The notes under the pieces are model-generated. The model was not told the origin of the DNA, did no database searches, and saw nothing but the letters and a program-made list of their open reading frames with translations. DNA of 32,000 nt from Mycobacterium leprae TN (lineage in GTDB: Bacteria; Actinomycetota; Actinomycetes; Mycobacteriales; Mycobacteriaceae), in assembly GCF_000195855.1 (NCBI RefSeq), contig NC_002677.1, positions 480,001 through 512,000 of the forward strand, in the 5' to 3' direction. This document shows positions 5,205 to 23,216 of this stretch, in pieces (within the stretch, counting starts at the first letter, position 1; each line of letters starts with the position of its first letter). The position numbers were made by a program, and so were the translations under genes.

Positions 5205-5663
5205 TTGGCTGAGGCTCAGTGGCGCACAGCTTACTATCCGACTGTGTTCGTCGTGCATGTTGACCGGAACATCGCCCACCAAGGTAACCCTGTGCATTGA
5301 GGTGTGGCTGGTTGTCGTAGTTGTCGGTTGCTTGGTGTTGTGTGATTGGTTGTCCTCAACGGTGACGTCGACCGGCTCCCGGTTCCAGCGGATGGTGTTT
5401 TCGGGCATGGTGATTTGTCGCTGTAACAACTCCAAAAGCACGCTTGGTTCGTGGCTGTCCAGACCGACGAGGCTGTGCATAAAATTTCCCAACAGTAACA
5501 TGGGCTCACCGGTCTTCGGGTGCACCCGCACGACCGGATGTTCGTTCCGGAAAACCGGGTTCTCGAACGCCTCCCGGAACTCCCGCTGTGTGTCGGTTAT
5601 CGATTCGACCCGATCCGGCTGCCTAGCTGGGTGACGTTTATCGTGTGTGTACTCTATTTCATT
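5205..5663 (-). pseudogene. TauD/AtsK-family Fe(II)/2-oxoglutarate dioxygenase remnant (Rv3406-like), 5'-truncated
   Basis: The translation ...REFREAFENPVFRNEHPVVRVHPKTGEP...ENTIRWNREP...MHRVTLVGDVPV matches only the C-terminal ~45% of Rv3406. The N-terminal half, which carries the HxD iron site, is absent. The distal His region is degenerate and the native stop is lost, so the frame runs into the choD 3' end. Confidence 0.7.
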
Positions 5664-5711
5664 TCATCCTTTTGGGACTAGCTGACGTAGTCAGTTCGAT
5701 CGCATCGACTA

Positions 5712-5731
5712 GTGCAGTCATATGACTGCAC
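5712..5731. promoter_or_regulatory. Perfect 20-bp palindrome GTGCAGTCATATGACTGCAC (candidate relic TetR operator)
   Basis: Read directly from the sequence. It lies in the ~70-bp divergent gap between the dioxygenase remnant and the TetR remnant. A second 5-3-5 inverted repeat, CTGAC-GTA-GTCAG, lies at 5682-5694. Confidence 0.45.
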
Positions 5732-5734
5732 CCT

Positions 5735-6279
5735 CGGCAACCCGCTCACGCAAGGCTCCCGCCGGACGGGAAGATGTTGCGGAGCCATGCCACTGACTTG
5801 TTTGCCGAGCGCGGTCCGGCCGCGACATCTATCCGCGATATCGCCGCCCGATCGGGGGTCAACGATGGACTGGTTTTTCGGCCCTTCGGAACCAAAAAGA
5901 ACAATTGGTGGGTGCTGTGCTATATCACTTGGGTATGACGCTGACCGGTTTGCTGCACTACGCGGCGTCAGGTGACGTCGTCGAACGTGGGCTCGATCGG
6001 CATATGGGGTCCTGACCCGGACACTATTCGACGGTTATCTCGTGGGGCAGATGAGAAGCAATTTCCCAACGTTGCAGAGATGCTAGATGGCGTGCGGCCA
6101 CGCCACAGAAGCGACCGCGCAGCGCACTGCTGGCAGTCGCTAATTTCCTTGCGCCGCAATTTGGTTAGCAATTATTTACTCCTATGCTGCATTCGGTTAT
6201 CGGTATCGCCGACCTGACCGAAGCGCAGCTTCAGCGGGCCGTGCACGCCGAGGTGGCCTGGCTCATCGAGCCGCACTGA
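5735..6279 (+). pseudogene. TetR-family transcriptional regulator remnant (Rv3405c-like)
   Basis: A TetR HTH is readable (DLFAERGPAATSIRDIAARSGVNDGLVFRPFGTKK). A frameshift precedes it (~5785) and an in-frame TGA follows shortly after. The C-terminal ...LTEAQLQRAVHAEVAWLIEPH* sits in another frame. Confidence 0.7.
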
Positions 6280-10427: not shown

Positions 10428-11042
10428 GGTGTTCGAGGTTCCTTTTCAACATTGATCAGAGTTGTTCGATGTTATCCTTGCTATAAGCCGGTCGAGTACT
10501 GGGCACAAATCTTGTCATTCATACGTGCACCAGGCGGTGTTCTAGCTGCGCTACGCGGCGTACCGACCCGAAAATTGGAAGTGCGCGGCCCGTGGCTGCT
10601 GTAGCCGATCGAATTCGTCCAGACAGTGTGCTAGGGACCTGGAAAATGGACGGCATGATCACCTATGTTCGCGATGTCGTTGGTGTCGAACCCGAAGACT
10701 TCTTGACAATTGCACACCGTTACGTCATCGTCTCAAAATTGCGCCGTACCGCTGGCAATACTTAATACGCTAGGTCTGGGACTTCATGTTGACTGAGCTC
10801 GATCCGATGCACTTGTCACAGTCCCCCCTCGGGGGACCGAAGCCAAGTACAAGGCCGCTATGCGGCGAACCCATGCCACCGGCGATCGTTATGCCATCGA
10901 CGCATTGCGTGCCGCGTTGTGCTCTCGGTGGATTGATGCTGGGGGAACAACAGGCGGTTGTCGGCGTGGAGTTGATCGCGAGGCAGCCCTGTGCGTTGCT
11001 GCTTGCCTCGGGAGCTGCTGCCAGCCTCTAGACTGGCTGCCC

Positions 11043-12632
11043 GTGGCTGACTCTGCTGGCCTCGACCAGCCCGAACCCTCGCCCCGCCCCGTGTTGGTGG
11101 TCGACTTCGGTGCGCAGTATGCACAGCTTATTGCCCGCCGGGTTCGAGAAGCACGGGTTTTTTCCGAGGTAATTCCGCACACCACCTCGATCGAGGAGAT
11201 CACCGCCCGTGATCCGCTGGCGATTGTGCTTTCTGGTGGACCGGCCAGTGTCTATACGGAAGGTGCTCCGCAGCTCGATCCAGCGCTGTTTGACCTCGGT
11301 TTGCCGGTGTTCGGGATCTGCTACGGGTTTCAGGCCATGGCTCAGGTGCTCGGCGGGACTGTCGCCCGAACCAAGACCAGTGAATACGGCCGGACGGAAC
11401 TGAAAGTCCTTGGCGGTGATCTGCATTCGGGTCTTCCTGGTGTCCAGCCGGTCTGGATGAGTCACGGTGACGCGGTCACCGCCGCGCCCGATGGATTCGA
11501 CGTGGCTGCCAGCAGCTCGGGTGCCCCAGTGGCCGCCTTCGAGAACCGGGACCGGCGTCTGGCCGGGGTGCAGTATCACCCGGAGGTGATGCACACCCCG
11601 CACGGGCAACAAGTACTCAGCCGGTTCTTGCACGATTTCGCTGGGCTTGACGCGGATTGGACGGCTGCCAACATCGCTGGTGTGCTGGTCGAGCAGGTGC
11701 GTGCCCAGATCGGCAACGGCCATGCGATCTGCGGACTGTCTGGAGGTGTGGATTCCGCAGTGGCCGCAGCACTGGTGCAACGCGCCATCGGAGACCGATT
11801 GACCTGTATCTTTGTCGATCATGGTCTGCTGCGTGACGGTGAGCGCGGACAGGTGCAGCGTGATTTTGTCGCCGCTACTGGCGCTAAGCTGGTTACCGTC
11901 GACGCGGCCGAGACTTTCCTTCAGGCGCTGTCGGGTGTGACCAACCCCGAAGGCAAGCGTAAGATTATCGGACGCCAGTTCATCCGGGCATTTGAAGGTG
12001 CAGTACGGGATTTGTTGGGTGACAGCACTTTTGATTCCGGGATCGAGTTCTTGGTTCAGGGCACACTGTATCCGGATGTGGTGGAGTCCGGTGGGGGCAG
12101 TGGCACTGCGAACATCAAGAGCCACCACAATGTTGGTGGTCTTCCCGACAACCTAAGGTTCAAGCTCGTTGAGCCGCTGCGGCTGCTATTCAAAGACGAG
12201 GTGCGTGCGGTCGGTCGACAGTTGGACCTGCCGGAGGAAATTGTTGCTCGCCAACCATTTCCGGGTCCTGGCCTGGGCATCCGGATCGTTGGTGAGGTGA
12301 CTGCCGAACGGCTGGACACGCTGCGGCGGGCCGACTCGATAGCGCGTGAGGAGCTGACCACGGCGGGTCTGGACTACCAGATTTGGCAGTGCCCGGTAGT
12401 GCTGCTGGCCGACGTACGTTCGGTCGGTGTGCAGGGGGATAATCGCAGTTACGGACACCCGATCGTGCTGCGGCCAGTGTCTAGCGAGGATGCCATGACA
12501 GCCGATTGGACCTGGGTTCCTTATGAGGTGTTGGAGTGCATCTCGACGCGTATCACCAACGAGGTTGCTGAGGTTAACCGCGTGGTGTTGGACATCACCA
12601 ACAAACCGCCCGGCACCATCGAGTGGGAATAG
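11043..12632 (+). CDS. guaA: GMP synthase (glutamine-hydrolysing)
   Basis: Glutamine amidotransferase domain (GICYGFQ, HPE), ATP-PPase P-loop (SGGVDS) and the C-terminal dimerisation domain are present. GTG 11043 places 15 residues before PVLVVDFG, as in Mtb GuaA. The ORF-track start at 10860 adds a 61-aa non-homologous extension. Confidence 0.95.
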
Positions 12633-12713: not shown

Positions 12714-13823
12714 TTATTTGGTGTCGATGATGAACTCTTCGAGCTGGGCACGCGCGATCTCGTCGGGTAGCTGTTGCGGCGGGCTTTTCATCAGGTAGGA
12801 TGAAGCCGGGATCACTGGTCCACCGATCCCTCGGTCCTTGGCTATCTTTGCTGCCCGTACCGCGTCGATGATGACGCCCGCTGAGTTCGGTGAGTCCCAT
12901 ACCTCGAGCTTGTATTCGAGGTTCAGCGGCACATCGCCGAAACCACGGCCTTCCAGTCGGACGTAGGCCCATTTGCGGTCATCGAGCCAGCCGACGTGGT
13001 CTGACGGACCGATGTGGATGTCTTTGGTATTGAATTCCCGATGCACGTTCGACGTTACGGCCTGGGTCTTGGAGATCTTCTTGGATTGCACCCGTTCGCG
13101 CTCGAGCATATTCAGGAAGTCCATGTTGCCGCCCACGTTGAGTTGCATGGTGCGGTCCAGCTGCACCCCGCGGTCCTCAAACAGCTTGGCCATCACCCGG
13201 TGAGTGATGGTTGCGCCGACCTGGCTCTTAATGTCATCACCTACGATCGGTACCCTGGCGTCGGCGAATTTTTTGGCCCACACTGGGTCGGAGGCGATGA
13301 ACACCGGCAGCGCGTTCACGAACGCTACGCGGGCGTTGATGGCGCACTGGGCATAGAACTTGTCGGCTTCTTCGGAACCCACCGGCAGGTAGGACACCAG
13401 CACGTCTGTCTTGGCTTCTGTTAGTGCCTGGACTACGTCGACGGGTGGAACGTCTGACAGCTCAATGGTGTCGGTGTAGTACTTGCCGATGCCGTCCAGT
13501 GTTGGGCCGCGCTGCACCACCACATTGGTGGGTGGCACGTCGGCGATCTTGATGGTGTTGTTCTCTGAGGTGAAGATCGCGTCCGACAAGTCTACGCCGA
13601 CCTTCTTGGCGTCTACGTCGAAGGCCGCCACGAATTTAACATCACGCACATGGTAGGGTCCGAACCGCACGTGCATAAGACCGGGCACTGTCGATGTGTC
13701 GTCAGCGTTCTGGTAGTACTCGATACCTTGAACTAGCGAGGACGCGCAGTTGCCCACGCCGACAATGGCTACTCTTACCTCAGTCGACGCCCCTGGCGCC
13801 CCTGCTGGGTTGTGCTCACTCAT
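12714..13823 (-). CDS. ino1: myo-Inositol-1-phosphate synthase
   Basis: 369-codon ORF. The translation ([22 protein letters not shown]...) is collinear with Mtb Ino1 (Rv0046c). It is convergent with guaA across an 81-bp gap. Confidence 0.95.
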
Positions 13824-13938
13824 AGGGCGTTCTCAAAACTTTGTTTCAGGTGTTTGTTGTTTGGTACAGGGAGTTAGCTAAGCAGGGTGAATGACCGCAC
13901 TGGCTTTAGTGCCGCTGACTCGGATGATACGACGTTTA

Positions 13939-15771
13939 TCATTTGATAATGCCGATCTTGCGGCGTTGTAGGAAGACAAAAACCGCAGCGGCGAGCATAA
14001 TTCCCTTGATGATCTGCGAGGCGGCATTCCCAACACCCATAAACACCATGCCGTTGGAGAGCATCGAGATGATTATTGCACCGATCAGCGTTCCGCTGAG
14101 TCGTCCCAATCCGCCGGTTAAGGGCGTGCCGCCGATGACGACTGCGGCGATGACATCGATCTCGAAACCTGTTGCTGCGGTGGGTGTCCCGGCTCCGAGG
14201 CGGGAAGCAAGCACGATACCGCCGAGGCCTGCTGTCAGTCCGCAGATCGCGAAGATCGCGACTTTGATCCCGCGGGTAGGTACCCCGGCTAACGTTGCGA
14301 CACGTTCGTTGCCACCGATGGCTTTGACCCACCGACCAAACATGGTGAATTGGAATAAGATCCCTGCCAGGATTGTGACGAAAAGACAGACGATGAGGAT
14401 CCACGGCATGGCTCCCATTGCACCCAGTATTCCGTGAAACGGCATCGGTTTGGCAGAACTGTCGCTGATCATCAGGGTGATACCACGGCAGACTTGAAGC
14501 ATGCCGAGGGTGCTAACGAATGACGGAATCTTCCCGTAGGCAAAAACGATGCCGTTTACCATCCCAGCAGCCAACCCCACCAGCAGGGCGGTGACGATCG
14601 CAGCGAATTGATTCTGTGCAGCCACGAGTGCCGCGGTGACTCCAGTCAATGCGACGATCGAGCCCACCGATAGTTCAACGGAGCCTGCCATGATAACGAA
14701 AGTCATGCCGTATCCGACGATCGCCAGCACCACGGTTTGTTGGAGAATGACCAGCAGATTTGATGGTGCATAGAACTTAGCTCCGGCCGCAGCTGTAAAA
14801 AACACAAACAGTGCGATCAGCGCGACGAACGGTACCAGCTGCTGCGGCGTGACGGCACATTGTTTCTTGTTCTTGGCTGCATACATCGCGGAGTCGGCAT
14901 CACGCAAAATGTCGGCGGCCCGCCGTCGATCGTCAGGTCTCACCTCAAGGATGCCAACACTCGCTCCGATAGGCACCGTGAGCTGGTCGACCACGAGTGA
15001 CTCGGACAGTGTTGTGTGCAGTCTTTTTGCGACGTCGTTAGCATTCATGTCCGAAAGGGGACCCCGGAGTAGTACGATGAACTCGTCTCCGCCCAGCCGC
15101 GCGACGACATCGTCGGGCCGCACAGCCGAGCGTAGTCGCTGCGCTACAGTCTGCAACACCGCGTCACCTACGTCGTGGCCTAGTGAGTCGTTGATCACTT
15201 TGAAATCGTCGAGGTCAAGAAGCAGTACAGCAGCTAATCGAGAGCGTTCGTCATGCTGCAGTGATTTGGTGATCTGGTCTTCCGCAAACCTGCGATTGGC
15301 AAGACCGGTGAGACAGTCGTGGGTTGCCTCGTAGGTGAGCCGTTCGATCGAAAGGTGGTGGGCAGAAATGTCAGAAAACGAGACTACCAGTGCAGAGTGT
15401 GGGGGAGCCTTGTACGCAAGCAGGCTCACGTTTACCGATAGCCATAACCGCTGGCCACTGTGTTGGTCAATGCCGACGACTTTGCTTACCGTTGTTACTT
15501 CGCGTCGTACGACGCGCATGACCTCACGCTCAAGATCAACCCGCTGATTGTCTGTATCGTAGAAGCAGAATGGATGGCCATGCTTCATGTCAACGACATC
15601 GTGGGCTCGTAAGCCCAATATCCGAGTAGCGGCGGGATTAATGGACTCAATCCGTCCGTCGATGTCTACCACAATGACTCCGTCGGCCATTGATGTGACA
15701 ATCGCTTGGAAGTATTGTTCGGCGTCACACTTCGTCGTGTGATCCACGCCCTCTGATGTAATGTCGGCCAC
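13939..15771 (-). CDS. Fusion protein: PAS sensor + GGDEF diguanylate cyclase + RbsC-type (CUT2) ABC sugar permease
   Basis: 610-codon uninterrupted ORF with a GTG start. PAS spans aa ~17-135 (nt ~15367-15723). GGDEF spans aa ~142-303, with DLDDFKVIND, the GGDEF motif at nt 15079-15093 and an RxxD I-site at nt 15109-15120. From aa ~310 (nt ~13942-14842) it is a multi-TM BPD_transp_2 permease collinear with E. coli RbsC (GSVELSVGS, GGNERVATLAGV, IGGTPLTGG). From memory this may correspond to ML0397c. Confidence 0.85.
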   Translation of the reverse strand: MADITSEGVDHTTKCDAEQYFQAIVTSMADGVIVVDIDGRIESINPAATRILGLRAHDVVDMKHGHPFCFYDTDNQRVDLEREVMRVVRREVTTVSKVVGIDQHSGQRLWLSVNVSLLAYKAPPHSALVVSFSDISAHHLSIERLTYEATHDCLTGLANRRFAEDQITKSLQHDERSRLAAVLLLDLDDFKVINDSLGHDVGDAVLQTVAQRLRSAVRPDDVVARLGGDEFIVLLRGPLSDMNANDVAKRLHTTLSESLVVDQLTVPIGASVGILEVRPDDRRRAADILRDADSAMYAAKNKKQCAVTPQQLVPFVALIALFVFFTAAAGAKFYAPSNLLVILQQTVVLAIVGYGMTFVIMAGSVELSVGSIVALTGVTAALVAAQNQFAAIVTALLVGLAAGMVNGIVFAYGKIPSFVSTLGMLQVCRGITLMISDSSAKPMPFHGILGAMGAMPWILIVCLFVTILAGILFQFTMFGRWVKAIGGNERVATLAGVPTRGIKVAIFAICGLTAGLGGIVLASRLGAGTPTAATGFEIDVIAAVVIGGTPLTGGLGRLSGTLIGAIIISMLSNGMVFMGVGNAASQIIKGIMLAAAVFVFLQRRKIGIIK

Positions 15772-16059
15772 AGCATCAGAGAGTACAACTGTGCTTGAGT
15801 ACGATGTGCGGTTCGGTTGACGTTGTGGTATTCGCCCAGTTCATGTGTAACGGTTTTGGTGATTTGCTTGGTCGCTCAGCCAGCGTCTGGACTATTGTTC
15901 CAGTCCTGGCTAAGCATCCCCTGCCGTTCTCGTTGGTAAACCCAGGGTTTGTTGTGGGTTCAACTGCGGCGACGGTGTTCTGAGTCCAGTTAAGCGCTTA
16001 CAAAGCACCATAGGAGTTGCCTAGTACGGGTTGTCTGGAACAGATCGGACATTTTTTGA

Positions 16060-17097
16060 TCAGTTCAAGGTGATCGTCATATCGAACGGGGTTGTGGACT
16101 TCCAGTTGTAGTGTGGCGTGTTGTCGATGTAGCGGGCCTTGAACTTGGCGACGTTGGATTTGTCAACCTTGAGCAGGTCGAGCTTCACCATCCGCTCAGC
16201 AGGATCTTGGCCGTGGATTTTGCGATAGAGGATTGCCAGCCCGAACCCGCCCTCTAGCCAATGGGCGCCCAAGCTGACGGTGTACAATCCGTTTTCGATC
16301 GCTGCGATTGCTTGCGGTGTCAAATCCATTCCTCCAAAGATGAATTCCTTTTCACGATTGGCGTTGTATACTGCTTTGATTGCGCCCTGGCAGAGTTTGT
16401 CGTTGAAGCACCAGATGGCGTTGGCGTCGCCGGCGGGGTGTGCTTGCAGCATGTTCTCGGCGGCGGCAAGGCCTTTGTCTTCGCTGTCACCGGCGTACTG
16501 AAACTGCACAAGCCGGTGACCGACTGCCGTGAGCGCTGATTCCAGGCCAGCCTTGCGGCCCTGGGCCACCGAGTTGCCGGGCATGCCACCGAGGGCAAGG
16601 AATTTCGACCCGCCGCCAGCCATGAGTGCTTCAGCAATGCCGCTTCCGGCTTTCTCATTATTGGGTCCCAGGAAGGCCACATAATCAGCGTTTTTGTTCT
16701 GCCCCGGGGCATATCCTGGGTAGCGGTCGACTACGACCACCGGGATGTTTGCCTGGGTGGCTATCCGCAGCAGCGTGGGAGCGATCGATGTTGACTGGGG
16801 GGTGACGATAAGCCCGTCGATGCCTTGGTTGATGAGGGTCTCAACGTCGGACAGTTGTTTTTGTTCGTCTTCTTCAGCCGACACGGCATTGATATAGACA
16901 CCGAGTTGGTGGCTTCCCTCGTCGATAAAGCGTGTGTAGGCATTCCAGAACGGACTGTTCGCGGTAGGATAGGACACGCCGATGGTCAGCTTGTGATGTG
17001 ACTCTGAGAAACCACACGCCGGCAGGATTGCTGGTAGCAGTCCCAGGATCAGCATAATGCTAGCCACGCGCAGTGGTACACTCGTTCCTGTGCTCAT
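16060..17097 (-). CDS. Periplasmic sugar-binding lipoprotein, type I (RbsB-like) ABC solute-binding protein
   Basis: 345-codon ORF with a signal peptide and a lipobox-like LPAC|G. The Peripla_BP_4-type body is recognisable (IGVSYPTANSPFW..., IPVVVVDR, FNDKLCQGA). It lies on the same strand, 288 bp upstream of the fusion gene. From memory this may correspond to ML0398c. Confidence 0.85.
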   Translation of the reverse strand: MSTGTSVPLRVASIMLILGLLPAILPACGFSESHHKLTIGVSYPTANSPFWNAYTRFIDEGSHQLGVYINAVSAEEDEQKQLSDVETLINQGIDGLIVTPQSTSIAPTLLRIATQANIPVVVVDRYPGYAPGQNKNADYVAFLGPNNEKAGSGIAEALMAGGGSKFLALGGMPGNSVAQGRKAGLESALTAVGHRLVQFQYAGDSEDKGLAAAENMLQAHPAGDANAIWCFNDKLCQGAIKAVYNANREKEFIFGGMDLTPQAIAAIENGLYTVSLGAHWLEGGFGLAILYRKIHGQDPAERMVKLDLLKVDKSNVAKFKARYIDNTPHYNWKSTTPFDMTITLN

Positions 17098-17341: not shown

Positions 17342-18016
17342 ATGTGTCTCCATAAATCTGGTAGGAGGCTAGTCGTGACCGCGGCTTTAGCCCCTGACCA
17401 GCGGTATGAGAATCGCGCTGATCAGCTCGAAGCATTGTGCCGTCGGATGGCTTTGATGTCTGAAAAGGCGTCCAGGCAAGTCGTAACCTGCTCTGCTACC
17501 GAAACCGGAATCTCGGCTGGCTGTCCCGCAGTGGCTTGCTGAAGCGCTGGACCCGAGGGGCCGGCAATGTACTACATTACGCGGGGGACGGTGGCGGTGT
17601 TGTCAGCTCGGTCATTGCTGTTGGGCGTGGTTGTTGTGGTGACGGCCGCCTGGGTCAACCCGTTGGTCTGCCTGATGTCGGACTGCTAGCCGCTGTGGAG
17701 TCTGGGGGCGGATCTGAGCCGGCTCGCGGTGATACCGGGTACCGCGACTGATCCAGTGGAAGTGGTTAGCGGTGTTTGTTGACGGCATGGTTCTGGTGGT
17801 ACTTGGTCTATGTGGGCACCTGGTGCCGCGCACTTGGGCGCGGGCAGTGGTAACCTGTGTTAAAAGTATGAGGTTGTTGCTATCTTGCTGGTCACCGATG
17901 GTGACTGGCAAGGGATTCTGACTCGGTTGGAGGGCCGAGTCTATGGCTATGAGATCACGATGAGCAACCAAGGCGCATCCACTCTCGGATTCGGGCACGT
18001 CGGGAGGTCCGGGTGA
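17342..18016 (+). pseudogene. imuA': imuA' (Rv3395c-like, RecA/SulA-fold mutasome accessory factor) remnant
   Basis: A single frame retains ...ADQLEALCRRMALMS...RGTVAVLSARSLLLGVVVVVTAAW...GADLSRLAVIPGTATDPVEVV...[26 protein letters not shown]. It is interrupted by four in-frame stop codons. It ends in GTGA, overlapping the imuB start. Confidence 0.6.
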
Positions 18017-19400
18017 GGGTCAGTGGCCTGTGTCCTGGAAGACAGGATTGAGTGTCTGGTAGCTATCCTGGGCGATTTCCGGTCACTTCATCATCCCGGA
18101 TGTTGGCGATTTGGTTCATGGACTGGCCGGCGGTCGCGACAGTCCCGGTCGTGGTCACTTTGGCTAACCGGGTGACTTCCTACTCGTCGGGCCGCCCCTC
18201 GCAAGGGTAGTCCGGCGAGGGCTGCGACGTCGTGAGGTGGCGGTCCGATGCCCGCAACTGTACGTCATGACTGTTGCCATTGACCGCGGCGCCCATTTTT
18301 TTGAGGGAGTGATCGCGGCCGTGGACGATCTGGTGTTCCGCCTCGAGGTGTTGCCGGCTCGGGCTTTTGGTGTTGTCATGCGAGGAACGGCCCGCTATTT
18401 CGGGTCCGGACAGCAGGTAACAACGCGGTGCTTGCCGATCTGGTTGACCGCCGCACTGTTGGTTACTGATGTGGCCTCACAGGTTCGGCGCTTATGGGGT
18501 AGCCGCCCACCGGTCCGGCCCATGGCGAACTCGAACGTCCGCATCTGTACAAATTGGCGCACTGCATCAGGCACTGATGGCCGCAGGAGTGGTATGTTAC
18601 CCGACTGACCATTTACGCCGTCACCGCTAATGTCGAAGAGTTGACTCGGGTGTGGTGGTGCGCCAAGCCGTTGACCGAGAATGCCACCGCCGATCGGGGT
18701 GCATTGGAAACTGAATGGCCCGTCAAGCAATCGGACTGCCTGCGACCGGCTCATGTCCGAGTTGAAAATGTTATCGCTGCAGGCGGTGGAGGTGGAGGTG
18801 GTCTCTGCTGAGGAACTGCAGTTGCCGTTATGCTATGGCGTTGAGGAGCGGGACGAACTTCTAGGCTTGGCGGGTGCGGGTATTCCGTACTGTTCGGTGG
18901 TCGCGCTCCGGCCGAACACATCACGTTGACCTCGCTGGGTGGTGAGTCGGCACCGTAGGCCGACTCGGGTCAACTGTGGCGCGGCCAACTTCCCGAGCCG
19001 TCGCTGGCTGTGTTGCTTGACGACCCAATGGCATTACTTGATGGACAGGGAAATCCGATACGGGTGACCCGCGGGTCAAGGGGGTCATACCACCCGTGCC
19101 CAGGTACTGCTGGACAGCGAGCGTGCGCTGCTGCTGTGCTACCGGCAGCGGCGGTATAGGCCTTCTTGAAGGCAACGTTCCTTTGTCAAATGACTTGCCC
19201 TGCCACACTACTCTCTTGCCGATGTTCGTCGGTGTTCCGTTGTCGCTGTAGACCCACAGGCGCGTTTTGTCGGTAGGCCAACCGGATCGGCTTGCACCGT
19301 GGGATCCTTGCGCTGCTAGCCGTGGCTCGCGTGACAACAGTACTTCCTGCGCAGGATAGGCTAATGGGGCCCGCCAGTGCACCCATTTCGGCCACGTGTC
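18013..19400 (+). pseudogene. imuB: imuB (Rv3394c-like, catalytically dead Y-family polymerase homologue) remnant; 3' limit approximate
   Basis: Fragments in shifting frames: RMLAIWFMDWPAVA...LANRV; AVRCPQLYVM..DRGAHFFEGVIAAVDDLVFRLEVLPARAFGVVMRGTARYFGS; LLDDPMALLDGQGNPIRVTRG. There are multiple frameshifts and stops. Confidence 0.55.
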
Positions 19401-19933
19401 CGCGAACCTGTGCAGGTATCGCATGGTGAGGGTGATGGGGCCGGGCGGTATTAGTGACCCGCGCCGCCAGGTCGGTCATGTGTTCTGTATCCGCACCCTC
19501 CGGGTAGACATTGACGATTTCGCGTAGATTCGCGGCTACCGGCTGGTAGCCCTGGCGAGCAACAAGAATGTGGTTTCTTCGGTGGTTGAGTTCGTCGCGG
19601 CGATGTGTTTGCGCTCAGCGATAACAGCCTTGGCCAATTCGATATCGGCCAGAAGCAATGTGTGTAGCATGGTCCATTGCCGAACCGGCTATAGCGCACA
19701 TCTCTACGAGCTGGAACGTTCGCGCCGCGAACTCGTCTTCAACTACGCCGTTCATGCTCGCGGATCAGCCTGGGCCCACTGGATCCAAAACTTCTCACCG
19801 TCGTTTGTTACTGAATCGGAATGAGCTTGCATCAGGTGGATTCTATGGTGACGTCGTGTCCTATCTACCGAACATCTCGCGCTCTAGGGTCTCCGCTCGG
19901 AGACCGCACCATGGATACTCGGCCCGCCGAGAC

Positions 19934-20617
19934 CTACGACAAGGCGATTGGCCGCAAAAGTTGCTCTCTGGTTGGCCATGCTGACGTCGTCTGTGTAACT
20001 GTTGTGGGCAGTGAAATTGAGTTCGTCAGAGCACACCGGGTCTTCGGGACGCCTACCTTGATGGCCTTGGCTTGATGGGCCGGGCCGATGGCGACCGGTG
20101 ACTCGCCGAGGAAGTTCATGGCTTGGAAATTTGTCATTCCAAAGAGAACGACCGCAGCGATGTGGTCAGCGCACTCAGGCTGCAGCGGTTTGGACACGGT
20201 CGCCGGATCTATCCTGTCCAGCACCGCAGTCGAGGTAACGAAGCCCATCTACAGCTGCGCCTTGGGAATAATCGTAAAGTGCCATCCTGGTCTGCGGTCA
20301 GTTACTCGCTATCTAAACGACGTGACCGCTTGCGTCCCTAATGTCGTTAATGCCTGTGTACCAATCATTAGTGATTAGTGTCGGGGTAATTGAACTGGAT
20401 ATACGCCCACTGATCTGCCGCCGATGTGCTGGCGCAGGGGGGTCGATGAATGCTTCTCTGATTGGCCCAACACTGGGTAGAGTTGTCGATACCGTGTGCC
20501 AGCATGAATTTCACATCGTGGCATGGCTAGGTGGCCGCAGATGGCCAAGCGAAGATAGCAGGGGCCGAAGCTGCTTAGGCCTGATGCCGCTACTACTGTA
20601 GGATCAAGAAACAGCAC
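19934..20617 (-). pseudogene. Cutinase-family serine esterase remnant
   Basis: Fragments in three frames: ...GGRSVGVYPVQLP; NDWYTGINDIRDASGHVV*IASN*PQTRMALYDYSQGAAV (the GYSQG nucleophile elbow degraded to DYSQG); ADHIAAVVLFG...PVAIGPAHQAKAIKV. In-frame stops are present. Confidence 0.65.
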
Positions 20618-20913
20618 GATGTGACGTATGATTATGACGCAATAGGTGTTCGTTCAAGTTAAGCACCTAAATCTACTATATTCTGGCCCCATTGGATGGA
20701 TCTGGGCTGTCGGCAGCTTGCGTGCATTGTGCCGTTGGTGAGCAGAGCCCGGCCGGGCTGGCCGCATCGGCGGTGAACAATTGCGGGTGCTCCGCGTTCT
20801 ACAGTGGCGTTACGCTTGGGGTATCTGACCTGCGAACGACCCAACCCGGCCAATTTACCCGGTAGAAAAACGCCGCAGGGGCTACGCCAATGGAGATCAA
20901 GGTAGTTGGGCTT

Positions 20914-21775
20914 TCAATCCGAGGACCAGTCGGCGACCGTCAAGTCAAGCGGATATGTTAGCTCGACCTCCACTGTCGTGGCCTGGGTTGTCACCAAGTC
21001 CGGATCCAGTGTGACTACAGCAGCCAGCGCATCATGCATATACGCTACGCACCCTAGGTTGCGAGCCTCGTGAGACTCGAATGTATTAAGCGCAGCGCAT
21101 CCTTGATCACCTGGATCAACGGAGACAGAACTGCGGTAGACACCAGCTTGGTGAGGATGTTCAGCGTCAGATCCAACCTGCATACGATCGAAAGTTGTTG
21201 TTGCTCAGTCCAAGCCGCAAATACCTTGTTTGCCTCCTCTGGGTTCACCCTACCTGATTGTTCCATTCGGCCGCGACTTTGCTCTGGCCAGAGCCGTCGA
21301 ACACGCCGCCTATGATCACTAGCCGGCTTAGGAGCGTCGGGCGTGCCGACTCGGTGTACAATAACACAGCCAAGTTGGTCGGCGTCCCGGTGACGAGGCC
21401 GATTCGGTTCTCAGCGTGGGTGCGAGCGGCATCTATCCAAGTCGTCGTGGCATCGTAACTGGCAATCCGGCAGTCAGTGGAGGGCAGCTCGGCATAGTTT
21501 CAATCTCGGCATAGTTTCAATATTTGGGCTGTGGAATTTTGCATTCTCAGGCTACTTGGTCGCACAGTGGCTTGTCGTTGCCTTTGCACACGGGTATGGC
21601 TGTGGCCCGGAACAATTTGACCAAGCCAAGGTTGTTCGCGCACATCTGCTCGACTTCAATATTTTCGCCGGGAGATACTATTCCGACGAGATTGATGTCA
21701 GGGTTGGCCAGTAGATATACCAGAGCCACAGCCTAATCGATGTCGGTAATCGACGTCGATGAAAACTAGGGTGCA
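20914..21775 (-). pseudogene. iunH: Inosine-uridine preferring nucleoside hydrolase remnant (iunH, Rv3393-like)
   Basis: The N-terminal DxDxxxDD region is degraded (VFIDVDYRHR*). Then come ALVYLLANPDINLVGIVSPGENIEVEQMCANNLGL, NPEEANKVF, and the C-terminal HDALAAVVTLDPDLV...VEVEL. Frames shift, stops are present, and a 17-bp tandem duplication lies inside. Confidence 0.7.
21489..21522. repeat. Perfect tandem duplication, 17 bp x 2 (CTCGGCATAGTTTCAAT)
   Basis: Read directly: 21489-21505 and 21506-21522 are identical. It lies inside the iunH remnant, and the length is not a multiple of 3. Confidence 0.95.
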
Positions 21776-21824: not shown

Positions 21825-22790
<966 letters not shown>

Positions 22791-23216
22791 ACATCAAAAG
22801 TTTAATCATGCCTGGAAATCAGAGCATTGAAATTTAAATATGTATATATTGTATTTGGAAGATTTTGCCTAAAGATCACTATAACGAAAAAATTTTTAAG
22901 TGTTGACGAGAATCTAAACATTGTTAAAGGATTTTGTAATGAATTTTTGTGTTATCTTTGAGTGAATTTCGAAAAATTATGACTTAATAATCTTATGAAT
23001 TAAATGATTTTATATTCATTTATAGTGTATTAACGATATAATTTAATATATTTAAAGATATCTAGAATATTTATTTTACATTATGCTCATCCATCTAATT
23101 ATTTTTTTAGCGTGGCGGTCTGAAGGTAATCGTACAATATGCAATAACAGGTCAATATAAGTCATGGTACGGCATTATATTCTATAGCGACGACTGTTAG
23201 GATGTAGGCGGCAGGC
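22791..23216. promoter_or_regulatory. Extremely AT-rich intergenic block upstream of espA (probable promoter / nucleoid-protein binding region)
   Basis: A hand count of 22801-23100 gives 65 G+C in 300 nt (~22% GC) in an otherwise GC-rich window. There is no ORF of 60 aa or more. A/T tracts and short AT palindromes (ATTTAAAT, GATATC, TCTAGA) are present. TATATT/TATAGC -10-like hexamers lie 30-45 nt before the espA ATG. Confidence 0.5.

What the first reader, a model, noticed from the sequence alone, without database searches (positions are those of the whole stretch)
13939..17097. Solute-binding lipoprotein plus PAS-GGDEF::ABC-permease fusion with no ATPase: candidate ligand-gated c-di-GMP signalling module
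ORF 13939-15771(-) is uninterrupted and reads PAS, then GGDEF, then a permease. Every catalytic element of the GGDEF domain that I can check by eye is intact: DLDDFKVIND, GD, GGDEF at nt 15079-15093, and an RxxD I-site exactly 5 residues upstream at nt 15109-15120. The permease is a full-length RbsC/BPD_transp_2 (CUT2) type, collinear with E. coli RbsC from its first TM helix to its C-terminus. An intact RbsB-like binding lipoprotein lies 288 bp upstream on the same strand. The RbsC N-terminus is cytoplasmic, so the PAS-GGDEF part would be cytoplasmic and held in a dimer by the permease. That geometry could couple binding-protein docking to cyclase activity, by analogy with binding-protein-dependent sensor kinases. 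About 12 of 27 gene-sized units in this window are dead, yet both of these ORFs are clean, which argues for selection. I know of no characterised diguanylate cyclase that uses an ABC permease as its membrane or sensor module.
Basis: partly seen in the sequence, partly recalled or inferred. Interest (0 to 1): 0.82.

Follow-up and report, generated by a model that had tools for sequence, protein, structure and literature searches.

The report
Diguanylate cyclase fused to orphaned ABC permease
In the leprosy bacilli and M. haemophilum, the ATPase gene of a sugar ABC importer was replaced by a PAS-GGDEF (c-di-GMP synthase) module fused in frame to the permease, giving a selectively maintained membrane protein seen in no other sequenced organism and probably used for signalling rather than transport.

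Summary
ORF 13939-15771(-) (M. leprae ML0397c by adjacency to ML0398c) is PAS + GGDEF + a complete RbsC-type permease. ORF 16060-17097(-) (ML0398c) is an RbsB-like lipoprotein 288 bp upstream.

New findings:
- The closest free-standing permeases lie in SBP-ATPase-permease operons. A decayed 5' piece of that ATPase gene, including a ruined Walker A, survives in the 288-bp spacer. PAS-GGDEF therefore replaced the ATPase.
- The fusion is full length in M. leprae, M. lepromatosis and M. haemophilum. No other GGDEF-permease protein ranked among the top 150 of 1.84 billion representatives.
- Both halves are under purifying selection (omega about 0.13-0.23), and the permease keeps its EAA coupling motif.
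- In M. lepromatosis the binding-protein gene is long dead (10 indels, near-neutral divergence), yet the fusion stays intact and constrained. The binding protein is therefore not obligatory.
- The last phosphate-binding Arg of GGDEF is Gln at the junction.

Verdict: a real, lineage-specific, membrane-anchored diguanylate cyclase built on an ATPase-less ABC permease. Gating by the binding protein is plausible in M. leprae and M. haemophilum but unproven and dispensable. It is a new variant of a known kind. The gene is already annotated, and no activity has been shown.

The parts
16060..17097 (-). ML0398c: RbsB-like solute-binding lipoprotein (345 aa). Signal peptide with lipobox LPAC, Cys28.
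   Evidence: Peripla_BP_4 E=8e-41. The best solved relatives are ribose-binding proteins, 2ioy at E=1e-30. It is 59% identical to the binding protein of the free-standing operon L003. The published ML0398c peptide aa15-29, MLILGLLPAILPACG, matches. dN/dS against M. haemophilum is 0.20.
15881..16030 (-). Fossil of the 5' end of the ABC ATPase gene, about codons 9-58. Walker A is decayed (GENGAGKST to NENGRGCLA) and there is an in-frame stop.
   Evidence: tblastn of the L003 ATPase, residues 15-58, hits window 16012-15881(-) at 36% identity, E=1.5e-4. This is the only ATPase hit in the window. It lies in the 288-bp spacer, in the right order and orientation. The same place matches in M. haemophilum (E=0.003) and M. 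lepromatosis (E=0.084). Pfam does not recognise the fragment.
15772..15880 (-). Leader between the ATPase fossil and the fusion start codon. It probably arrived with the PAS-GGDEF insert. The last 25 nt or so are conserved in all three species.
   Evidence: Three-species comparison of the spacer. No convincing promoter or terminator on this strand was found by consensus scan.
15364..15714 (-). PAS domain of the fusion (residues 20-136).
   Evidence: PAS_8, PAS and PAS_4 score above their Pfam cut-offs. This is the least constrained part: omega is 0.30-0.58 pairwise, and 10 nonsynonymous to 4 synonymous changes fall on the M. lepromatosis branch.
14860..15327 (-). GGDEF domain (residues 149-304), carrying DLDDFKVIND, GHDVGD, the RPDD I-site, GGDEF and the AAK of AKxxGR.
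   Evidence: Pfam E=6e-48. Alignments to solved cyclases. Motif coordinates. omega is 0.13-0.17. It is 45-49% identical to the C-terminal PAS-GGDEF of the ML1419c family (P0010-P0018) and 54% identical to a 329-aa free-standing PAS-GGDEF, P0123.
14845..14862 (-). Fusion junction, residues 304-309 (QCAVTP). It includes Gln304 in place of the conserved Arg of AKxxGR. Only about 11 residues separate the last GGDEF helix from TM1.
   Evidence: Comparison with the C-termini of PAS-GGDEF relatives and the N-termini of free-standing permeases. The junction residues vary among the three species (C/F, T/R).
13939..14844 (-). RbsC-type (BPD_transp_2, CUT2) permease, residues 310-610 plus the stop codon. 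It has ten long predicted helices and the EAA coupling motif GGNERVATLAGV at nt 14281-14316.
   Evidence: Pfam and NCBIfam. It is 55-67% identical to free-standing permeases and keeps essentially all family-invariant residues (exceptions are in the report). AlphaFold2 pLDDT is 89, and the nearest solved folds are type II ABC importer membrane domains with TM-scores of 0.44-0.49. omega is 0.18-0.23.

Best explanation
**What it is**

This is a lineage-specific chimeric gene, present in M. leprae, M. lepromatosis and M. haemophilum. In an ancestral actinobacterial sugar or polyol importer operon (binding protein, double-domain ATPase, permease), almost all of the ATPase gene and the first 35 or so codons of the permease were replaced. 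The replacement was a PAS-GGDEF cassette related to the ML1419c family, joined in frame to the permease.

**What it most likely does**

The product is an inner-membrane protein. Its permease half, normally a homodimer, holds two cytoplasmic PAS-GGDEF units side by side, so it can make c-di-GMP. It can no longer pump, because its motor is gone.

I propose that the permease dimer now serves two roles. It is a membrane and dimerisation scaffold, and it is the docking site for the ML0398c binding lipoprotein. Ligand-loaded ML0398c would shift the permease dimer and so change how the two GGDEF domains meet. Product inhibition through the RxxD I-site, and the PAS domain, would add cytoplasmic control.

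The binding-protein input is modulatory, not essential. M. lepromatosis lost it and kept the enzyme.

**Shown versus inferred**
- Shown: the anatomy, the origin, the distribution and the selection.
- Inferred: cyclase activity, dimer geometry and coupling to the binding protein.
For: **Architecture and motifs:**

**Origin**
- The closest free-standing permeases (55-67% identity) sit in SBP-ATPase-permease operons. The L003 binding protein is 59% identical to ML0398c.
- The ATPase fossil lies in the spacer in all three species.

**Not an artefact, and unique**
- Full-length orthologues occur in three species.
- No other GGDEF-permease protein appears among the top 150 of 1.84e9 representatives. 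The two-stretch hits tested are tandem permeases.

**Selection on the fusion**
- Overall omega is about 0.2 in every species pair, within the range of neighbouring intact genes (0.04-0.36).
- On the M. lepromatosis branch there are 27 nonsynonymous and 38 synonymous changes (P = 2.5e-8 against neutrality).
- There are no indels where about 18 would be expected at the local pseudogene rate.

**Topology**
- Six helices precede the EAA loop, so the N-terminus is cytoplasmic.
- A single permease gene next to a double-NBD ATPase in the ancestral operon implies a permease homodimer.

**Binding protein still in use in M. leprae**
- It carries 30 lineage-specific substitutions per 998 sites, against 94 in the dead M. 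lepromatosis copy. Its omega is 0.20, in a locus full of pseudogenes.

**Permease not degenerating**
- It keeps almost all family-invariant residues and an EAA motif identical to free-standing relatives, with little rate acceleration (one of 15 relative-rate tests significant).

**No cognate ATPase elsewhere**
- No named mycobacterial member appears among the 33 closest ATPase clusters.

**Precedents**
- Sd-Amt1, an ammonium-transporter module driving a GGDEF domain (PDB 8qj3; PMC11152129).
- NspS-MbaA, a binding protein controlling a c-di-GMP enzyme.
Against: - M. lepromatosis has kept the fusion under selection for most of the time since its split from M. leprae with a dead binding-protein gene. 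The selected function therefore does not need ML0398c.
- The permease is attached to the C-terminus of GGDEF by about 11 residues. Known sensor cyclases transmit signals into the N-terminus through a helical stalk, so the coupling route proposed here has no precedent.
- The conserved Arg of AKxxGR is Gln304, so activity may be reduced or lost.
- The PAS domain evolves almost neutrally in two of the three lineages.
- No expression, activity or interaction data were obtained here.
- The full-length AlphaFold2 model is unreliable in its N-terminal half, so the geometry is untested.
Confidence: 0.4

Rival explanations
1. Anchor only. The permease half is merely a polytopic membrane anchor and dimeriser that localises a PAS and I-site regulated cyclase. 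ML0398c has no functional link to it, and either has another role or is not yet decayed in M. leprae and M. haemophilum.
For: - The fusion is retained under selection in M. lepromatosis without the binding protein.
- The PAS-GGDEF unit resembles complete soluble cyclases such as P0123 (329 aa) and the ML1419c family.
- The C-terminal tether is an unlikely signalling route.
Against: - ML0398c is clearly constrained in M. leprae: 30 lineage-specific substitutions against 94 in the dead copy, omega 0.20, in a genome that discards unused genes. Its only ancestral partner is this permease.
- The permease keeps almost all family-invariant residues, including the EAA motif. That is more conservation than a simple anchor needs.
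- After loss of the binding protein, 6 of the 12 M. lepromatosis-specific permease changes cluster in TM1 and the first periplasmic turn (P = 3e-4, post hoc).
Confidence: 0.3
2. Catalytically weak or dead GGDEF. The domain acts as a c-di-GMP or GTP receptor (through the I-site or active site) or as a structural module, and the protein has a non-cyclase role at the membrane.
For: - Gln304 replaces the conserved phosphate-binding Arg at the junction.
- The RxxD I-site is intact.
- No activity data exist for this protein.
Against: - All other catalytic signatures are intact and unchanged in the three species: DxDxFKxxND, GHxxGD, RxGGDEF and the Lys of AKxx.
- GGDEF is the most constrained part, with omega 0.13-0.17.
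- Relatives in the same family vary at this motif (AKADGK, AKAKRR), and two lysines flank the position.
Confidence: 0.15
3. Still an importer. ML0398c and the permease half transport a sugar or polyol using an ATPase encoded elsewhere, and PAS-GGDEF is a regulatory appendage.
For: - The permease is fully conserved, including the EAA coupling motif that normally contacts the ATPase.
- The binding protein is retained in two species.
Against: - The cognate ATPase gene is visibly destroyed in situ.
- No ATPase lies within 10 kb in any of the three loci.
- No named mycobacterial member appears among the 33 closest ATPase clusters.
- From memory and untested here: M. tuberculosis-type mycobacteria lack CUT2 ATPases.
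- M. lepromatosis keeps the fusion without the binding protein.
- A bulky PAS-GGDEF only 11 residues from TM1 would crowd the ATPase docking face (inference).
Confidence: 0.1
4. Evolutionary accident with no function: a chimeric ORF that has simply not yet decayed.
For: - It arose by a crude replacement event and sits among pseudogenes.
Against: - It is intact in three species, with omega about 0.2 in each pair.
- It has zero indels where about 18 would be expected at the neighbouring pseudogene's rate (P = 2e-8).
- The M. lepromatosis-branch nonsynonymous to synonymous ratio is far below neutral (P = 2.5e-8).
Confidence: 0.03

Closest known systems
Sd-Amt1 of Shewanella denitrificans: an ammonium-transporter module fused to a diguanylate cyclase (PDB 8qj3/8qj4/8qpf; PMC11152129)
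   Same: A membrane transport module has been repurposed as the membrane or sensor part of a GGDEF cyclase. Oligomerisation of the transporter brings the GGDEF domains together.
   Different: - The transporter there is an Amt trimer, not an ABC permease.
- GGDEF is C-terminal there and connected through a HAMP domain. Here PAS-GGDEF is N-terminal and is tied by its C-terminus to TM1 through about 11 residues.
- No separate binding protein is involved there.
- Sd-Amt1 has been characterised structurally. This protein has not.
NspS-MbaA of Vibrio cholerae and Sinorhizobium, and other solute-binding-protein-dependent c-di-GMP enzymes (PMC8967002, PMC9993111; review PMC8050422)
   Same: A periplasmic solute-binding protein derived from an ABC transporter is encoded next to a membrane c-di-GMP enzyme and is proposed to control it.
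   Different: - MbaA has its own periplasmic sensor domain and a GGDEF-EAL output. Here the presumed docking surface is the original ABC permease itself.
- The interaction is demonstrated for NspS-MbaA and untested here.
- One species here has lost the binding protein.
RbsABC-type (CUT2) ABC sugar importers, e.g. the free-standing operons L002 and L003
   Same: The binding protein (59% identity) and the permease (62-63%) are clear homologues in the same gene order. The EAA motif is identical.
   Different: The ATPase gene is reduced to a fragment of about 150 bp. The permease lacks its own N-terminal 35 or so residues and carries PAS-GGDEF instead.
ML1419c family of mycobacterial PAS-PAS-GGDEF cyclases (P0010-P0018). 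I recall the activity of ML1419c from Rotcheewaphan et al. 2016, which I could not read here.
   Same: The PAS-GGDEF half is 45-49% identical to the C-terminal 300 residues of this family. Published ML1419c peptides match the family.
   Different: Those proteins are soluble, have extra N-terminal PAS domains, end after GGDEF and keep basic residues at the AKxxGR position.

Membership tests
GGDEF diguanylate cyclase (PF00990) | GG[D/E]EF active-site motif, preceded by Arg (RxGGDEF) | tested here: met
   ARLGGDEF, residues 224-231. Pfam E=6e-48. Identical in all three species.
GGDEF diguanylate cyclase (PF00990) | Metal- and guanine-binding motifs DxDxFKxxND and GHxxGD | tested here: met
   DLDDFKVIND (186-195) and GHDVGD (198-203) align to the same motifs in solved cyclases 5m3c, 3icl and 7a7e.
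GGDEF diguanylate cyclase (PF00990) | C-terminal phosphate-binding Lys and Arg (AKxxGR) | tested here: not met
   The Lys is present (K300). The Arg position is Gln304 and the Gly position is Lys303. The alignment is AKNKKQC against AKSRGRS of 5m3c. Close relatives also vary here, so the consequence is unknown.
GGDEF diguanylate cyclase (PF00990) | Allosteric I-site RxxD, five residues before GGDEF | tested here: met
   RPDD, residues 218-221.
GGDEF diguanylate cyclase (PF00990) | Makes c-di-GMP as a dimer | not testable with these tools
   A dimer is inferred only from the homodimeric nature of single-gene CUT2 permeases.
Binding-protein-dependent ABC importer (CUT2, RbsABC type) | Periplasmic or lipoprotein solute-binding protein | tested here: met
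   Peripla_BP_4 E=8e-41. Ribose-binding proteins are the best solved relatives.
Binding-protein-dependent ABC importer (CUT2, RbsABC type) | BPD_transp_2 permease with an EAA coupling loop | tested here: met
   Pfam E=1e-34. The RbsC model is covered at positions 11-316 of 321. AIGGNERVATLAGVPT is identical to free-standing homologues.
Binding-protein-dependent ABC importer (CUT2, RbsABC type) | Cognate ABC ATPase | tested here: not met
   Only a decayed fragment of about 50 codons remains, with a stop codon and a ruined Walker A. None lies within 10 kb in the three species. No named mycobacterial member is among the closest ATPase clusters. The whole genomes were not searched.
PAS sensor domain | PAS fold recognised above the curated threshold | tested here: met
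   PAS_8 33.7 bits (cut-off 21.8), PAS 33.5 (22.6), PAS_4 26.0 (23.1). Cofactor or ligand was not assessed.
Solute-binding-protein-controlled c-di-GMP enzyme (NspS-MbaA type) | Binding protein physically controls the enzyme | not testable with these tools
   The only evidence is adjacency, shared ancestry and joint retention in two of three species. Loss of the binding protein in M. lepromatosis shows the control is not obligatory.
Transporter-derived receptor cyclase (Sd-Amt1 type) | Transporter module fused to GGDEF through a signalling linker such as HAMP | tested here: not met
   A transporter module is fused, but no HAMP or helical stalk lies between the permease and GGDEF. The link is about 11 residues from the C-terminus of GGDEF to TM1.

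The most novel reading that the evidence does not exclude
An ABC importer membrane domain that has lost its ATPase works as an ATP-independent receptor. Docking of the ligand-loaded lipoprotein ML0398c on the permease dimer is transmitted to the fused GGDEF domains and sets c-di-GMP levels. This would give the leprosy bacillus and M. haemophilum a dedicated sensor for a host sugar or polyol. It would be the first ABC permease shown to transduce binding-protein docking into second-messenger synthesis.
Probability: 0.3. Interest if true: 0.8.

Novelty: new variant of a known kind. Interest (0 to 1): 0.62.

Why it matters
- **An accessible signalling system in an uncultivable pathogen.** M. leprae cannot be cultured and has shed most of its signalling genes, yet it keeps this odd protein and its binding lipoprotein intact among pseudogenes. 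If the pair senses a host metabolite and sets c-di-GMP, it is one of the few environmental inputs of the leprosy bacillus that can be tested. Testing could be done in M. haemophilum or M. smegmatis.
- **A traceable evolutionary event.** The locus is a clean, datable example of how a transporter is converted into a signalling protein. The donor family, the acceptor operon, the junction and the fossil of the replaced gene are all visible.
- **A general question about ABC importers.** It offers a natural test of whether ABC permease conformational changes driven by a binding protein can be read out without an ATPase.

Tried and rejected
1. **Other GGDEF-permease fusions.** In the exhaustive search, 13 hits of 625-717 aa with two matched stretches looked like candidates. 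All ten tested are tandem permease-permease proteins.
2. **A possible horizontal transfer signal.** The synonymous divergence between M. leprae and M. haemophilum is lower for the fusion and binding protein (0.27) than for ino1 (0.56) and guaA (0.41-0.44), which suggested transfer of the cassette. I dismissed this because the neighbouring GH65 gene has 0.276 and the range among neighbours is 0.25-0.56.
3. **A full-length alignment for structure prediction.** MAFFT misaligned the PAS-GGDEF homologues onto the permease (A2 and A3). The full-length model therefore used permease homologues only and is unreliable for residues 1-306. No inference on inter-domain geometry was drawn.
4. **Pfam on the ATPase fossil.** A Pfam scan of the fossil peptides gave no hit. 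The evidence for the fossil is the tblastn match plus its position.
5. **A solved CUT2 permease.** Sequence search of the PDB for the permease half found nothing. The fold search gave only weak type II ABC importer matches.
6. **Literature.** The Rotcheewaphan et al. 2016 paper on M. leprae cyclases is not held. Searches for ML0397 or ML0397c found no paper naming the fusion gene. Searches for GGDEF plus ABC permease fusion found nothing relevant.
7. **Relative-rate tests.** Tests for faster evolution of the permease after fusion were mostly non-significant.
8. **Promoters and terminators.** Consensus scans gave no more hits than shuffled sequence.

Full report
**Identity of the locus**

The window is Mycobacterium leprae. 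The exact 610-aa product of ORF 13939-15771(-) is RefSeq WP_330944609.1, annotated [quoted passage not shown]. The strain TN entry CAC29905.1/Q9CCU8, "putative transporter protein", is the same protein read from a start eight codons downstream. ORF 16060-17097(-) is "putative D-ribose-binding protein". It contains the published ML0398c peptide aa15-29, MLILGLLPAILPACG. By adjacency the fusion is ML0397c. That locus tag comes from my own knowledge of the numbering and was not printed by any tool. Downstream lie ino1 (12714-13823, -) and guaA (10860-12632, +).

**Checking the observation**

- Pfam gives PAS (residues 20-136), GGDEF (149-304, E=6e-48, profile 1-159 of 161) and BPD_transp_2 (339-596, E=1e-34).
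- NCBIfam aligns residues 306-599 to positions 11-316 of the 321-position RbsC model.
- GGDEF is at nt 15079-15093 and the RPDD I-site at 15109-15120, five residues upstream. DLDDFKVIND and GHDVGD are present.
- The upstream ORF is Peripla_BP_4 (E=8e-41). Its best solved relatives are ribose-binding proteins (2ioy, E=1e-30). It has lipobox LPAC at Cys28, and the gap to the fusion is 288 bp.
- Neighbouring orthologues of M. haemophilum genes are frameshifted or truncated in the window. These are a nucleoside hydrolase, a 414-aa protein, two small proteins, a TetR and a TauD.

There is one correction. The conserved Arg of the C-terminal AKxxGR motif is Gln304. The alignment is AKNKKQC against AKSRGRS of 5m3c.

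**Topology**

An AlphaFold2 model of the permease half is confident (pLDDT 89, pTM 0.86) and shows ten long helices. Six of them precede the loop that carries the EAA-type motif AIGGNERVATLAGVPT. In ABC importers that loop faces the cytoplasmic ATPase, so the N-terminus, and with it PAS-GGDEF, is cytoplasmic. The three lysines before TM1 agree with this. The nearest solved folds are type II ABC importer membrane domains (BtuC, HI1471, PsaC; TM-scores 0.44-0.49). No CUT2 permease structure is found by sequence.

**Origin of the fusion**

The closest free-standing permeases are 55-67% identical (P0003-P0009, P0121) and 333-346 aa long. Two metagenomic contigs show their context. The order is binding protein (377 aa), ABC ATPase with two nucleotide-binding domains (500 aa), permease (336 aa). 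In L002 these are followed by GFO/IDH oxidoreductase, an Ino1-like gene, a PfkB kinase, SIS, LacI and an AP_endonuc_2 gene.

The L003 binding protein is 59% identical to ML0398c, and the L003 permease is 63% identical to the fusion's permease half. Both M. leprae genes therefore descend from such an operon, and PAS-GGDEF occupies the place of the ATPase gene.

The ATPase left a fossil. tblastn of the L003 ATPase against the whole window gives one hit. Residues 15-58 match window 16012-15881(-) at 36% identity (E=1.5e-4). The hit lies inside the 288-bp spacer, in the right orientation. It has an in-frame stop, and Walker A has decayed from GENGAGKST to NENGRGCLA. The same position matches in M. 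haemophilum (WAENTVVAVEPATNPGLANEND against WADDAVIAIEPGDVLGLAGENG, E=0.003) and in M. lepromatosis (E=0.084). Pfam does not recognise the fragment.

The junction can be placed within about six residues. Sequence derived from GGDEF ends at ...DSAMYAAKNKK. Sequence derived from the permease starts at about PQQLVPF, which corresponds to RQLVPF at residue 36 of the L003 permease.

The PAS-GGDEF half is 54% identical to a free-standing 329-aa PAS-GGDEF protein (P0123). It is 45-49% identical to the C-terminal 300 residues of the P0010-P0018 family. Those sequences contain the published ML1419c peptides, such as LRLDGTTL.

**Distribution**

Full-length orthologues exist in M. haemophilum (610 aa, 90% identity) and M. 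lepromatosis (617 aa, 91% identity). The gene order is the same in both: binding protein, fusion, ino1, guaA.

An exhaustive HMMER scan of 1.84 billion representative proteins listed no other protein matching both halves among its top 150 hits, all of which score at least 180 bits. Of the 13 two-stretch hits of 625-717 aa, the ten I tested are all tandem permeases. The fusion is therefore not a strain or sequencing artefact, and the architecture appears confined to this small clade.

**Selection**

Pairwise dN/dS by the Nei-Gojobori method:

| Region | dN/dS |
|---|---|
| Whole fusion | 0.20-0.27 |
| GGDEF | 0.13-0.17 |
| Permease | 0.18-0.23 |
| PAS | 0.30-0.58 |
| ML0398c, M. leprae vs M. 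haemophilum | 0.20 |
| Neighbouring intact genes | 0.04-0.36 |

The permease keeps almost all family-invariant residues, and its EAA motif is identical to that of free-standing relatives. The exceptions seen are A to C in LQVCRG, a conserved G to A in PTAATGFE, and the strain-specific D366E described below. Tajima relative-rate tests show only a slight excess of changes on the fusion branch. The excess is significant in one of 15 comparisons (51 against 18, P=7e-5, versus P0004 with outgroup P0009) and not in the other 14.

**The M. lepromatosis result**

In M. lepromatosis the binding-protein gene is a pseudogene. The start codon is lost and there are ten indels, including a 37-bp deletion. 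It carries 94 lineage-specific substitutions per 998 sites. The M. leprae copy carries 30. The figure of 94 is close to the synonymous rate per branch, so the gene has drifted for most of the time since the two leprosy bacilli split.

Over the same period the fusion gene in M. lepromatosis acquired no indel. At the pseudogene's rate about 18 would be expected (P=2e-8). It accumulated 27 nonsynonymous and 38 synonymous changes, far below the neutral ratio (P=2.5e-8). For the permease half alone the counts are 12 and 20 (P=1e-5).

The function that keeps the fusion alive therefore does not require ML0398c. Two weaker observations fit a loss of periplasmic input in that lineage.
- Six of the twelve M. 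lepromatosis-specific permease substitutions fall in residues 308-335, which cover TM1 and the first periplasmic turn (P=3e-4, post hoc, and this region is variable in the family).
- The PAS domain there is nearly neutral, with 10 nonsynonymous and 4 synonymous changes.

**Is an ATPase available in trans?**

None lies in the window or within 10 kb in the other two species. The cognate ATPase subfamily comprises 33 clusters at 54% identity or more, followed by a drop to 43%. Its named members come from Leucobacter, Rhodococcus, Paractinoplanes and Solicola. None is named as mycobacterial, although M. haemophilum proteins are in that database. A heterologous CUT2 ATPase elsewhere in these genomes could not be excluded with the tools available. 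From memory, M. tuberculosis-type mycobacteria lack CUT2 systems.

**Mechanism**

Shown:
- The protein is a polytopic membrane protein with a cytoplasmic PAS-GGDEF module.
- Its transporter motor is destroyed.
- It is maintained by selection in three species.
- Its ancestral binding protein is maintained in two of them.

Inferred:
- A single permease gene with a double-NBD ATPase implies a permease homodimer. A homodimer would hold two GGDEF domains together, which is the condition for c-di-GMP synthesis.
- ML0398c is kept in the decaying M. leprae genome although transport is no longer possible. Its only ancestral partner is this permease. The most economical reading is that it still docks there and modulates the enzyme.
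- M. lepromatosis shows that this input is dispensable.

I rate this model at 0.4. The rivals are rated as follows.

| Rival | Confidence |
|---|---|
| Pure membrane anchor | 0.3 |
| Catalytically impaired GGDEF acting as a receptor | 0.15 |
| Importer with a trans ATPase | 0.1 |
| Functionless relic | 0.03 |

The weakest point of the gating idea is geometric. The permease is tied to the C-terminal end of GGDEF by about 11 residues. Known sensor cyclases instead feed signals in through an N-terminal helical stalk.

**Comparison with known systems**

- The closest in concept is Sd-Amt1, an ammonium-transporter module driving a GGDEF domain through HAMP (PDB 8qj3; PMC11152129).
- Also close are binding-protein-controlled c-di-GMP enzymes such as NspS-MbaA (PMC8967002, PMC9993111; review PMC8050422).
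- The protein is not a member of the functional ABC importer class, because the ATPase test fails.
- It meets most but not all sequence criteria of active GGDEF cyclases.

**Novelty**

The gene itself is known and annotated. I found no description of the replaced ATPase, the fossil, the clade-restricted architecture or the loss of the binding protein in M. lepromatosis. That search was limited to the held literature and was not exhaustive. I class the finding as a new variant of a known kind, a transporter-derived membrane cyclase, with moderate to high interest.

Noticed in passing
window 14674-14676 (codon 366 of the fusion): The window, like strain TN (CAC29905.1), has Glu at a position where 90% or more of RbsC-type permeases have Asp (G-S-I/V-D-L-S-V-G-S). 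M. haemophilum, M. lepromatosis and the commoner M. leprae allele also have Asp. The commoner allele (WP_231883283.1) is on 193 contigs, against 12 for the window's allele. This is a rare nonsynonymous polymorphism within a very clonal species.
   Followed up: partly
L004 11830-11854 (M. lepromatosis fusion 3' end): The stop codon of the fusion is lost in M. lepromatosis, which adds seven residues (CHPSQRH). The last helix also carries changes (FVFLQRRK to FVLPQRHK). Database entries use four different starts or lengths for this protein: 602, 605, 610 and 617 aa.
   Followed up: partly
window 12714-13823 (ino1) and L002 4250-5326: The fusion is followed by ino1. The free-standing homologous transporter operon L002 also contains an Inos-1-P_synth gene (45% identical), together with iol-like genes (GFO/IDH, PfkB, AP_endonuc_2, LacI). 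This hints that the ancestral transporter handled an inositol-like polyol. ino1 also has the highest synonymous divergence of the local genes between M. leprae and M. haemophilum (0.56, against 0.25-0.44 for the others).
   Followed up: partly
window 17375-21747 and 5208-6276: Six M. haemophilum genes flanking the pair are pseudogenes in the window:
- nucleoside hydrolase, 20856-21747, three frames
- a 414-aa protein, 18599-19157
- the MT3502_N protein and an 82-aa protein, 17375-17770
- TetR, 5722-6276
- TauD, 5208-5645, truncated
   Followed up: partly
window 13874-14404(-), 13943-14437(+), 14849-15334(+): These long ORFs overlap the fusion gene in other frames and are spurious. One has dN/dS above 2. 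The two antisense ORFs simply mirror the constraint on the fusion.
   Followed up: yes
window 22001-23000: GC content falls to 0.42, against about 0.55-0.63 elsewhere in the window. The region aligns only weakly (69%) to M. haemophilum.
   Followed up: no
window 10860-10970: The guaA ORF as listed has a 37-residue N-terminal extension that does not align to the M. haemophilum or M. lepromatosis orthologues. The true start is probably near 10971.
   Followed up: no
window 14884-14886 (Met296 codon): The conserved Met of the GGDEF motif ADxAMYxAK lies 14 residues before TM1. An internal start there would yield a permease-only product with a normal-length N-terminus. No evidence for or against this was sought.
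   Followed up: no
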